A DNA stretch of 12,489 nt from a virus, in the UHGV virus genome UHGV-0192751, one strand, 5' to 3'. Shown here piece by piece: positions 6,009-6,218 of the stretch. Each line of letters starts with the position of its first letter. Position 1 is the first letter of the stretch. The position numbers and the translations under genes were made by a program. The notes under the pieces are model-generated. The model was not told where the DNA came from. It was given only the letters and a program-made list of their open reading frames with translations, and ran no database searches.

Positions 6009-6218
6009 ATGCAACAGCGAGTAAGGGAGCTTGAAAAAGACGTCCAGTCTATCAAGACAGACTTGGCTGTCATGAAATCAAATTACGCCACAAAAGAAGA
6101 CGTCAGCAACGCCAAGAACAGTATCATTATGTGGGTTGTCGGTGCGGTTATTTTTGCTCAATTAATACCTGCGCTTCCTGCAATCCTTGATGCCGTCAAA
6201 CGAATGTTGAGTGGCTAA
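6009..6218 (+). CDS. Small coiled-coil protein with C-terminal transmembrane anchor (XhlA-like architecture), accessory gene
   Basis: AGGAG at 5996-6000, 8 nt upstream of ATG 6009. The 69-aa product MQQRVRELEKDVQSIKTDLAVMK... ends in the hydrophobic stretch IIMWVVGAVIFAQLIPALPAIL. The track start at 5916 is GTG, has no ribosome-binding site and overlaps the upstream ORF. Confidence 0.55.
   Translation: MQQRVRELEKDVQSIKTDLAVMKSNYATKEDVSNAKNSIIMWVVGAVIFAQLIPALPAILDAVKRMLSG

What the first reader, a model, noticed from the sequence alone, without database searches (positions are those of the whole stretch)
6009..6218. XhlA-like coiled-coil tail-anchored membrane protein inside the tail module, away from the lysis gene
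The 69-aa product has an N-terminal coiled-coil-like helix followed by a single C-terminal transmembrane segment. That architecture is shared with small phage lysis-associated membrane proteins of the PBSX XhlA type. It is encoded far from the endolysin at the window start and directly before a strong terminator, so it may act as a membrane toxin, lysis regulator or exclusion factor rather than a structural protein.
Basis: partly seen in the sequence, partly recalled or inferred. Interest (0 to 1): 0.55.

Follow-up and report, generated by a model that had tools for sequence, protein, structure and literature searches.

The report
Prophage cargo gene: small membrane-anchored protein
The flagged ORF is the conserved part of a 100-residue, membrane-anchored coiled-coil protein that travels with a small partner gene as swappable prophage cargo, most often sitting right behind the phage repressor, so it is probably a lysogen-expressed protective module of untested function, not a lysis or tail protein.

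Summary
The ORF at 6009-6218 is real, and so are its coiled-coil helix, C-terminal transmembrane segment and following terminator. It is most likely only the last 69 codons of a 100-codon gene that starts at GTG 5916. The upstream 31 codons are under purifying selection, and the frame stays open in 60 of 67 relatives.

It is not an XhlA member: Pfam gives no hit and hhalign gives 3-10% probability. Its invariant YATKED motif matches the beta-layer of trimeric alpha/beta coiled coils, as in the DUF1640 and DUF3782 families.

The gene is coupled to an upstream 118-aa zinc-ribbon gene (5579-5935). Together they form a low-GC cargo cassette in a variable slot between the baseplate hub and spike genes. 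The slot ends in a conserved terminator and holds Phd/Doc in other E. coli.

In 51 of 80 viral contigs, relatives lie directly downstream of the CI-like repressor on the same strand, the lambda rexAB position. None lies next to a holin or endolysin. At least three unrelated partner families occur.

The best reading is a lysogen-expressed exclusion or abortive-infection-type module. That is inferred from context, not shown. The family is widespread (670 clusters at 50% identity), lacks a Pfam family and has not been characterised.

The parts
5916..6218 (+). Full gene for the 100-aa tail-anchored coiled-coil membrane protein (GTG start; AGGAGG Shine-Dalgarno sequence at 5904-5909)
   Evidence: The ORF is. 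It is identical to the NCBI-called 100-aa protein P0001. Shine-Dalgarno duplex energy is -10.8 kcal/mol. The N-terminal extension is under purifying selection. The frame is open in 60 of 67 relatives.
6009..6218 (+). The flagged ORF. It is the conserved core (coiled coil, beta-layer and membrane anchor) and a possible short 69-aa isoform from an internal ATG.
   Evidence: Conservation starts at this nearly invariant Met. The Shine-Dalgarno sequence upstream of it is stronger than in synonymous recodings: mean -7.86 against -6.30 kcal/mol, z = -5.6, n = 46. The sequences are related, so this is only a hint.
5916..6008 (+). N-terminal extension: a short DNVTMGRFPP motif and a Gly/Pro-rich acidic linker (GGEPPTGDDD), predicted to be unstructured
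   Evidence: The N[VI]xxx[FL]P and GGGNGGGDD/GGEPP motifs recur across distant relatives, with synonymous third-position changes. AlphaFold predicts coil for residues 1-29. pN/pS is 0.06-0.26.
6009..6083 (+). Heptad coiled-coil segment (residues 32-56)
   Evidence: The a/d positions are M32, V36, L39, V43, I46, L50, M53 and Y57. AlphaFold predicts a helix at 30-56.
6084..6101 (+). YATKED, a beta-layer motif of trimeric alpha/beta coiled coils (residues 57-62)
   Evidence: A58, T59 and D62 are conserved in at least 90% of 148 family representatives. The family profile aligns this motif to the MATKDD constructs 5APX and 5APZ. The published consensus is [aliphatic]-A-T-K-polar-[DE] (PMC4786415). 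The AlphaFold helix breaks at residues 57-63.
6120..6185 (+). C-terminal transmembrane anchor (residues 69-90), followed by a 10-residue tail
   Evidence: The Kyte-Doolittle 19-residue mean is 2.16. 147 of 148 representatives have such a segment, with a median of 6 residues after it.
5579..5935 (+). Partner gene: a 118-aa soluble zinc-ribbon protein (CxxC...CxxC). Its stop overlaps the GTG 5916 start.
   Evidence: The ORF is. It matches phrog_4293, of unknown function. It has no membrane segment. Homologous partners precede family members in Klebsiella, in metagenomic phages, in Mannheimia phage 587AP2 and in an Enterobacter phage-plasmid. The AlphaFold model has pLDDT 75 and no informative fold match.
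5498..5578 (+). Cassette-specific leader with conserved AACCAGT (5516-5522) and CACTGTTACAAT (5540-5551). The second is a candidate extended -10 promoter (TGnTACAAT).
   Evidence: Homology to other cargo variants ends at the stop of the preceding gene. The two blocks stay conserved among cassette-bearing loci although the sequence between them diverges. The strict two-hexamer scan found no promoter here, so this remains a candidate only.
6256..6283 (+). Intrinsic terminator (7-bp stem, 6-nt loop, eight T). It is the conserved right boundary of the cargo slot, 10 nt before the spike gene ATG.
   Evidence: Found. It is conserved in loci carrying Phd/Doc or other cargo.
5147..5497 (+). Backbone gene left of the slot: a 116-aa protein with an N-terminal signal-peptide-like segment (phrog_3443)
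   Evidence: It is present in relatives whatever cargo they carry.
4075..5145 (+). Baseplate hub gene (left flank)
   Evidence: It matches phrog_196 'baseplate hub' at 9.8e-84. It also matches Pfam E217_GP41 at 26.5 bits, just under the 27-bit gathering score.
6293..7033 (+). gpV-type membrane-puncturing spike gene (right flank)
   Evidence: It matches the Pfam spike N-terminal domain at 7.8e-41 and the GpV Apex motif.

Best explanation
The gene (5916-6218) and its upstream zinc-ribbon partner (5579-5935) form a mobile two-gene prophage cargo cassette. It is neither a lysis gene nor a tail gene.

Shown:
- The product is about 100 aa. It has a short unstructured N-terminal tail, about 3.5 heptads of coiled coil, a YATKED beta-layer motif and a C-terminal membrane anchor.
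- Both parts of the gene are under purifying selection.
- Its start overlaps the partner's stop.
- The cassette is low-GC cargo in a variable slot that is closed by a conserved terminator.
- Relatives are mostly found directly behind the CI-like repressor, with interchangeable partner families.

Inferred:
- The pair is transcribed in the lysogen, from the candidate extended -10 promoter in its own leader here and from the repressor's promoter elsewhere.
- The membrane protein is translated by coupling to the partner, inserts tail-first into the inner membrane with its N-terminus in the cytoplasm, and forms a trimer.
- The soluble partner acts as sensor or regulator and the anchored trimer as effector, either blocking DNA entry by other phages or collapsing the membrane on infection. 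This would be exclusion or abortive infection of the Rex or HK97 gp15 kind.
- The conserved internal Met with its own Shine-Dalgarno sequence may give a second, shorter isoform.
For: Gene structure and selection:
- Architecture is.

Cargo nature:
- GC content is 41-49% across 5100-6300, against 52-60% in the flanks.
- The same slot in other E. coli prophages carries Phd/Doc or unrelated small genes.
- Homology breaks exactly at the stop of the preceding gene and resumes at the conserved terminator.
- The cassette is absent from 5,426 complete E. coli genomes.

Repressor linkage:
- 51 of 80 viral-contig loci have a CI-like gene within 900 nt upstream on the same strand.
- Of 32 second-upstream genes, 15 match Peptidase_S24 and 15 match HTH_3, 5 match Phage_CI_repr and 2 match Arc/Mnt.
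- Annotated examples are phage epsilon34 c2-gp45-gp44, lying between the repressor and OL/PL, E. coli LR-60, Yersinia prophages and Mannheimia phage 587AP2.
- The epsilon34 genome paper judged genes 44 and 45 to be in the repressor operon 'like rexA and rexB' and expected them to be prophage-expressed (PMC2629481).

Modularity:
- Partners fall into at least three unrelated families (19 gp45-like, 13 zinc-ribbon, 4 Yersinia-type) with the same membrane protein.
- Both cassette types occur in both slots.
- The partners have no membrane segment.

Precedent: HK97 gp15 is a small inner-membrane exclusion protein encoded by a moron inside the tail operon, and it has chromosomal homologues (PMC3594210).
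Against: - There is no experimental or expression evidence at all. Function is inferred from position.
- PADLOC gives no hit for either protein.
- The strict promoter scan finds no sigma-70 site in the leader, and the partner's Shine-Dalgarno sequence is weak (-2.1 kcal/mol).
- The cassette points the same way as the tail genes, so it would also be made late in lytic growth.
- Many relatives in Oxalobacteraceae and other genomes are solitary chromosomal genes next to housekeeping genes. The core protein therefore has some cell-autonomous role that need not be anti-phage.
- Membrane topology and trimer formation are inferred, not tested. The AlphaFold model has low confidence (pLDDT 59.6).
Confidence: 0.5

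Rival explanations
1. Toxin-antitoxin or addiction module. The small membrane protein is a membrane-damaging toxin held in check by the soluble partner, and the pair stabilises the prophage rather than, or as well as, excluding other phages.
For: The same slot carries a Phd/Doc toxin-antitoxin pair in other E. coli. The layout is a two-gene overlapping operon with a soluble protein first and a membrane protein second. Partner families are interchangeable.
Against: No similarity to any known toxin-antitoxin family was found. Solitary chromosomal copies without a partner are common, which would be odd for a toxin that needs an antidote. The boundary between this reading and abortive infection is blurred, so it overlaps with the best explanation.
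Confidence: 0.15
2. Modulator of the prophage's own switch or induction, or of host physiology. This would be lysogenic conversion unrelated to phage defence, for example a membrane scaffold like the DUF1640/MCUR1-type proteins.
For: Relatives are in the repressor operon. They share the beta-layer plus membrane-anchor design with DUF1640. Chromosomal paralogues lie next to housekeeping genes.
Against: A switch modulator would not be expected to work equally well from a tail-module slot in an unrelated myovirus backbone. Nothing else speaks for or against this reading.
Confidence: 0.12
3. XhlA-type lysis accessory. The protein cooperates with the phage holin to permeabilise the membrane at the end of the lytic cycle, as PBSX XhlA and SPP1 gp24.1 do.
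For: It has the same overall architecture: small, with an N-terminal coiled coil and one C-terminal membrane helix. It hits phrog_1193 'hemolysin' weakly, at E = 5e-4. NCBI names one relative 'hemolysin XhlA'. It is co-oriented with the late genes.
Against: There is no Pfam XhlA hit. hhalign against an XhlA alignment gives 2.8-9.8% probability. Among 160 fetched loci and the annotated examples, none is next to a holin or endolysin. A related Klebsiella prophage has a complete holin, lysozyme and spanin cassette elsewhere (L010). The gene is dispensable in closely related tail modules. The XhlA hit in the Mannheimia protein falls on an extra C-terminal coiled coil that this protein lacks.
Confidence: 0.07
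4. Tail or baseplate assembly factor, or a virion component, specific to this tail module.
For: It lies between the hub and spike genes, on the same strand as them.
Against: It is absent from, or replaced by unrelated cargo in, near-identical tail modules. It occurs behind repressors in siphovirus- and podovirus-type lambdoid phages. Its GC content is deviant.
Confidence: 0.04

Closest known systems
PBSX XhlA / SPP1 gp24.1 (Pfam PF10779, 'Haemolysin XhlA')
   Same: Both are small phage-encoded proteins with an N-terminal coiled coil and a single C-terminal membrane helix. SPP1 gp24.1 is 83 aa, and its membrane segment starts after NTTWIK. Some database entries for relatives carry the XhlA name.
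   Different: There is no detectable sequence or profile homology. XhlA sits in the lysis cassette beside the holin and endolysin and acts with the holin (PMC6316719, PMC5589764). This family never does. It has a partner gene, an N-terminal extension and a beta-layer motif, and it occurs in Proteobacteria.
DUF1640 / CCDC90-like (PF07798) and DUF3782 beta-layer coiled coils (Hartmann et al. 2016, eLife; structures 5APX and 5APZ)
   Same: All share the beta-layer motif [aliphatic]-A-T-K-polar-[DE] (here Y-A-T-K-E-D) embedded in a coiled coil. DUF1640 also has a C-terminal membrane anchor. 13 of 148 family representatives hit PF07798, the best at 7.7e-8. The family profile aligns to the MATKDD constructs.
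   Different: The window protein itself does not hit PF07798 at E <= 1. It has no head domain, only a 31-residue unstructured tail. The beta-layer lies just before the membrane anchor rather than at the start of a long stalk. The trimeric state is inferred from the motif only.
Lambda RexA/RexB exclusion operon
   Same: Both are two genes directly downstream of the repressor in the same operon, one product soluble and the other an inner-membrane protein. The epsilon34 paper drew this parallel for the homologous pair gp45/gp44.
   Different: No defence-family model matched either protein in PADLOC. From general knowledge, RexB has four membrane helices and RexA is about 280 aa. The copy in this window is not behind a repressor but in a tail-module slot.
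HK97 gp15 moron (superinfection exclusion)
   Same: Both are small inner-membrane proteins encoded by an add-on unit inside the tail operon. In both cases the unit differs in GC content from its surroundings and ends in a terminator, and chromosomal homologues exist outside prophages (PMC3594210).
   Different: The sequence family is unrelated (YebO-like). gp15 is a single gene without a partner. gp15's exclusion function has been shown by experiment, and this one's has not.

Membership tests
XhlA (Pfam PF10779) | Matches the Pfam XhlA model at or above the gathering score (34.7 bits) | tested here: not met
   There is no XhlA hit at E <= 1 for either the 69-aa or the 100-aa form. One of 28 homologues hits at E = 0.015. 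One of 148 representatives hits at E = 1.3e-4.
XhlA (Pfam PF10779) | Profile-profile homology to bona fide XhlA proteins (SPP1 gp24.1 and Bacillus XhlA) | tested here: not met
   hhalign probability is 2.8% (A4 against A5) and 9.8% (A1 against A5). Only the first 13-28 coiled-coil columns align.
XhlA (Pfam PF10779) | Small protein with an N-terminal coiled coil and a single C-terminal membrane helix | tested here: met
   
XhlA (Pfam PF10779) | Encoded in the lysis cassette next to the holin and endolysin | tested here: not met
   None of the examined contexts has this arrangement. In a related prophage the lysis cassette is elsewhere (L010).
XhlA (Pfam PF10779) | Kills or lyses cells only together with the partner holin | not testable with these tools
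   This needs co-expression experiments.
DUF1640 / CCDC90-like (PF07798) | Matches the Pfam model | tested here: inconclusive
   The window protein has no hit at E <= 1. 13 of 148 family representatives hit at E <= 0.01, the best at 7.7e-8.
DUF1640 / CCDC90-like (PF07798) | Beta-layer motif [aliphatic]-A-T-K-polar-[DE] in the coiled coil | tested here: met
   The motif is YATKED at residues 57-62, with Tyr in place of the aliphatic residue. A, T and D are conserved in at least 90% of sequences. The motif aligns to the MATKDD structures. 93 of 148 representatives match a strict pattern. The consensus comes from PMC4786415.
DUF1640 / CCDC90-like (PF07798) | C-terminal membrane anchor | tested here: met
   
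DUF1640 / CCDC90-like (PF07798) | Folded N-terminal head domain ahead of the neck and stalk (recalled from general knowledge of the family, not checked in a paper here) | tested here: not met
   Only 31 residues precede the coiled coil. They are predicted to be coil and vary in sequence.
Moron (Juhala/Hendrix sense) | Present in some and absent from other closely related phage genomes at the same position | tested here: met
   
Moron (Juhala/Hendrix sense) | GC content differs from the neighbouring genes | tested here: met
   GC is 41-49% in the cassette against 52-60% in the flanks.
Moron (Juhala/Hendrix sense) | Own terminator | tested here: met
   The terminator is at 6256-6283. It is a fixed feature of the slot, shared by all cargo variants.
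Moron (Juhala/Hendrix sense) | Own promoter, with expression from the repressed prophage | tested here: inconclusive
   A conserved TGnTACAAT block lies in the cassette leader, but the strict scan finds no two-hexamer promoter. Expression cannot be tested here.
Rex-like repressor-linked exclusion operon | Located directly downstream of the prophage repressor on the same strand | tested here: not met
   This is not met for the copy in the window, which sits in a tail slot. It is met for most relatives: 51 of 80 viral contigs, and.
Rex-like repressor-linked exclusion operon | Sequence homology to RexA or RexB, or to any catalogued defence protein | tested here: not met
   PADLOC gives no hit for the window's membrane protein or its zinc-ribbon partner. 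The only hits are weak Cas12a matches (E = 0.0014 and 0.0067) for the 97-aa zinc-ribbon partner of L015.
Rex-like repressor-linked exclusion operon | Excludes or aborts infection by other phages | not testable with these tools
   This needs phage challenge assays.

The most novel reading that the evidence does not exclude
The cassette is one member of a large, unrecognised family of two-gene prophage defence modules. A trimeric, beta-layer-containing, tail-anchored protein would be the constant membrane effector. Interchangeable soluble partners (zinc-ribbon, gp45-like beta-rich and others) would be the sensors. Output may be tuned by two isoforms from a dual start: the long form carries the partner-binding tail and the short form lacks it, analogous to holin and antiholin pairs. 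The module moves between the repressor operon and tail-module cargo slots.
Probability: 0.3. Interest if true: 0.7.

Novelty: new variant of a known kind. Interest (0 to 1): 0.45.

Why it matters
If the inference holds, this is a widespread module: 670 clusters at 50% identity across Gamma- and Betaproteobacteria. It lacks a Pfam family and has not been characterised. It occupies the classic lambda rexAB position in many lambdoid prophages and also a dedicated cargo slot in a myovirus tail module. That would add a compact, easily cloned candidate (about 760 bp) to the list of prophage-encoded exclusion or abortive-infection systems.

It would also give the beta-layer coiled-coil membrane proteins (relatives of DUF1640/MCUR1), whose function remains unclear, a tractable bacterial model.

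On the practical side, the result corrects the gene model from 69 to 100 aa. It also shows that 'hemolysin XhlA' annotations on relatives rest on coiled-coil similarity that is weak or sub-threshold wherever I could check it.

Tried and rejected
- Pfam, NCBIfam and PADLOC scans of the membrane protein, the partner and their neighbours gave no family assignment for the pair.
- The AlphaFold model of the 100-aa protein had low confidence (pLDDT 59.6), so I ran no fold search on it.
- The partner profile against PDB sequences gave nothing useful.
- Rfam found no RNA family in the window.
- I looked for partner-specific N-terminal motifs, which would indicate co-variation. The N[VI]xxx[FL]P and Gly-rich motifs occur with every partner type, so this gives no evidence for a specific interface.
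- Literature searches for XhlA together with anti-phage activity, and for a characterised homologue, found none.
- I rejected the idea that conservation of 'GGGDD' before the Met merely reflects a Shine-Dalgarno sequence in non-coding DNA. Synonymous third-position variation and low pN/pS show that it is translated.
- I did not use the positive-inside rule to assign topology. From general knowledge, known bacterial tail-anchored proteins also end in basic residues.

Full report
**What is there.** The window is the tail module of an enterobacterial myovirus-type prophage. It encodes a tail assembly chaperone, a tape-measure protein with an SLT domain, a baseplate hub (4075-5145), a gpV-type spike (6293-7033), W, J and wedge proteins, tail fibre genes and an invertase. 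The flagged ORF (ATG 6009 to the stop at 6218) exists. Its product has a clean heptad pattern from M32 to Y57 and a strongly hydrophobic C-terminal segment (Kyte-Doolittle 19-residue mean 2.16) followed by about 10 residues. AlphaFold predicts helices at 30-56, 64-83 and 87-99 and coil before residue 30, at low confidence. A hairpin with a run of eight T follows at 6256-6283.

**The gene is longer than flagged.**
- The frame is open from 5898. GTG 5916 has an AGGAGG Shine-Dalgarno sequence 6 nt upstream (-10.8 kcal/mol, against -7.4 for ATG 6009) and overlaps the last 20 nt of the upstream gene 5579-5935.
- NCBI and other gene callers give 100 aa for the identical protein and 89-115 aa for most homologues.
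- In 60 of 67 non-identical relatives the frame stays open for at least 32 codons upstream of the conserved Met.
- The Gly-rich motif before the Met (GGGNGGGDD or GGEPPxGDD) is kept through synonymous third-position changes.
- Against three close relatives, the extension has pN/pS of 0.06-0.26 and the core 0.03-0.10.
- An exhaustive profile search finds 670 clusters (50% identity) at E <= 1e-3. Among the 147 best-scoring ones, median length is 106 aa, and matches usually begin inside the extension.

The product is therefore most likely 100 aa. The nearly invariant internal Met carries a Shine-Dalgarno sequence stronger than synonymous recodings would give (z = -5.6, n = 46). Those sequences are related, so this is only a hint that a short isoform may also be made.

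**It is not XhlA.**
- Pfam gives no XhlA hit for this protein. Only one of 28 and one of 148 relatives hit it, both below threshold.
- I built an XhlA alignment from SPP1 gp24.1, which the SPP1 genome paper identifies as the XhlA homologue (PMC6316719), and its Bacillus relatives. hhalign gives 2.8-9.8% probability.
- The resemblance is one of architecture only.
- The 'XhlA' label on a Mannheimia phage relative comes from an extra C-terminal coiled coil that this protein lacks.

**What the conserved motif is.** The family's invariant block is ...IKSNYATK(E/A)D(V/I)..., with A, T and D conserved in at least 90% of sequences. A profile search of PDB sequences aligns it to the MATKDD inserts of 5APX and 5APZ. 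These are the beta-layer constructs of Hartmann et al. (PMC4786415). That paper gives the consensus [aliphatic]-A-T-K-polar-[DE] and shows that the constructs form trimers. [quoted passage not shown] DUF1640 (now CCDC90-like, PF07798) is also the Pfam family most often hit by relatives: 13 of 148, the best at 7.7e-8. The AlphaFold helix breaks exactly at residues 57-63, YATKEDV. I infer a trimeric alpha/beta coiled coil that ends in a three-helix membrane anchor. The oligomeric state is not tested.

**Partner and cassette.**
- The upstream 118-aa gene encodes a soluble CxxC...CxxC zinc-ribbon protein. Its AlphaFold model (pLDDT 75) has no informative structural neighbour.
- The pair recurs together in E. 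coli, Klebsiella and Trabulsiella tail modules.
- Homology to prophages with other cargo stops at the stop codon of the preceding backbone gene (5147-5497) and resumes at the terminator. That terminator is conserved whatever the cargo is: Phd/Doc in ECONIH5, and unrelated small genes in strains G3/10 and UPEC 26-1.
- GC content drops to 41-49% across 5100-6300, against 52-60% in the flanks.
- The cassette's 81-nt leader keeps two conserved blocks, AACCAGT and CACTGyTACAAT. The second reads as an extended -10 element, but the strict scan found no two-hexamer promoter.
- None of 5,426 complete E. coli genomes carries this cassette.

**Where relatives live.**
- I fetched 160 loci.
- In viral contigs, 51 of 80 have a CI-like repressor within 900 nt upstream on the same strand. 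Six are in the hub-spike slot and two are near tail genes.
- Pfam on 32 second-upstream genes gives 15 Peptidase_S24, 15 HTH_3, 5 Phage_CI_repr and 2 Arc/Mnt.
- Annotated examples: phage epsilon34 c2-gp45-gp44, lying between the repressor and OL/PL; E. coli LR-60; Yersinia prophages; and Mannheimia phage 587AP2, which has cI, a zinc-ribbon partner, a one-membrane-helix protein and then a terminator.
- The epsilon34 paper already noted that genes 44 and 45 sit 'like rexA and rexB' and should be prophage-expressed. They had no database matches in 2008.
- Partners fall into at least three unrelated families. Both the zinc-ribbon and the gp45-like cassettes occur in both kinds of slot.
- No relative is adjacent to a holin or endolysin. 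A related Klebsiella prophage has a complete lysis cassette elsewhere.
- In bacterial genome contigs many members are solitary chromosomal genes next to housekeeping genes such as gltX, mrp and GNAT acetyltransferase genes.

**Interpretation.** The most economical reading is a mobile, lysogen-expressed, two-gene accessory module. A soluble partner would regulate or sense for a tail-anchored, probably trimeric, membrane protein. The module would function like Rex or the HK97 gp15 moron, that is, in exclusion or abortive infection (for gp15). This rests on position, cargo behaviour and architecture only. No defence-database model matches, and there are no expression data. The rivals are a toxin-antitoxin-like addiction module, a switch or physiology modulator, an XhlA-like lysis helper and a tail assembly factor. 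They are ranked in the report sections. The last two are disfavoured by context.

**Verdict.** The finding is real but was mis-delimited and mislabelled. It is an uncharacterised family without a Pfam model. The context signal is strong and reproducible, and there is a clear experimental path. Interest is moderate: many such candidate cassettes exist, and the function is not shown.

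Noticed in passing
window 1-545: Window 1-279 encodes the C-terminal part of an endolysin. From its sequence motifs (...[16 protein letters not shown]...[11 protein letters not shown]) I take it to be chitinase-like (GH19-type); I ran no family search on it. It runs straight into a 5'-truncated tail-tube gene: homology to the intact tube protein of L004 starts at DKSGTITV, about position 275. A deletion has removed the head and sheath genes, so the prophage in this window is defective.
   Followed up: partly
window 7034-7261 (ORF 7121-7258, + strand): A second small insertion lies between the spike gene and gene W. 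It encodes a 45-aa protein with a C-terminal hydrophobic segment (Kyte-Doolittle mean 2.34) that matches phrog_6632 at 3.3e-21. In ECONIH5 the spike gene and W abut with no gap. This may be another small membrane-protein cargo gene.
   Followed up: partly
window 5498-6290, and L001 6499-7459: The slot between the signal-peptide gene and the conserved terminator is a cargo hotspot. It holds Phd/Doc in ECONIH5 and ABWA45, a DUF4236 gene or unrelated small ORFs in other E. coli, and a 185-aa protein with several hydrophobic segments in UPEC 26-1.
   Followed up: partly
window 5147-5497: The backbone gene just after the hub encodes a 116-aa protein with a signal-peptide-like N-terminus (MGKAKLLICGVLLSVVGTSGALA/DT; phrog_3443, 2.8e-45). 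It is conserved whatever cargo is present. A secreted protein inside a baseplate module is unexplained.
   Followed up: no
window 5516-5522 and 5540-5546: AACCAGTG and CACTGTT in the cassette leader form an imperfect inverted repeat about 17 nt apart. Both arms are conserved among cassette-bearing loci while the spacer varies. This could be an operator or an RNA stem.
   Followed up: no
window 5990-6008 and homologous loci: Codon choice in the Gly-rich motif before the conserved internal Met favours Shine-Dalgarno-like sequence beyond what synonymous recoding gives (z = -5.6, n = 46; the sequences are related). This hints at a dual-start gene.
   Followed up: partly
L114 and L119 (Caballeronia, Erwinia); L157, L123 and L139: Some family members carry long tandem arrays of the heptad LKTDVxV, or repeated ...IKSNYATKEDV... 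units, ahead of the anchor. The coiled coil therefore expands by repeat duplication. Pseudescherichia and Xenorhabdus have tandem chromosomal paralogues.
   Followed up: no
L105-L122 (Oxalobacteraceae genomes): Solitary chromosomal family members lie next to housekeeping genes (gltX, mrp/apbC, GNAT acetyltransferase genes) with no partner and no phage genes nearby. The prophage copies probably derive from a cellular tail-anchored protein of unknown role, or the reverse.
   Followed up: partly
window 11449-12489: A Hin/Gin-type invertase gene (11987-12406) follows the tail-fibre and fibre-assembly genes, as in invertible host-range segments. A 117-aa ORF on the minus strand (11449-11802) lies between them. 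The equivalent recombinase in ECONIH5 is annotated as frameshifted.
   Followed up: no
L182 (Enterobacter asburiae plasmid p16773_4, 34570-35225): A zinc-ribbon partner and a family member annotated 'hemolysin XhlA' lie in what looks like a phage-plasmid. They are separated from the tape-measure gene by one 127-aa gene. This would be a third kind of insertion site for the cassette.
   Followed up: partly
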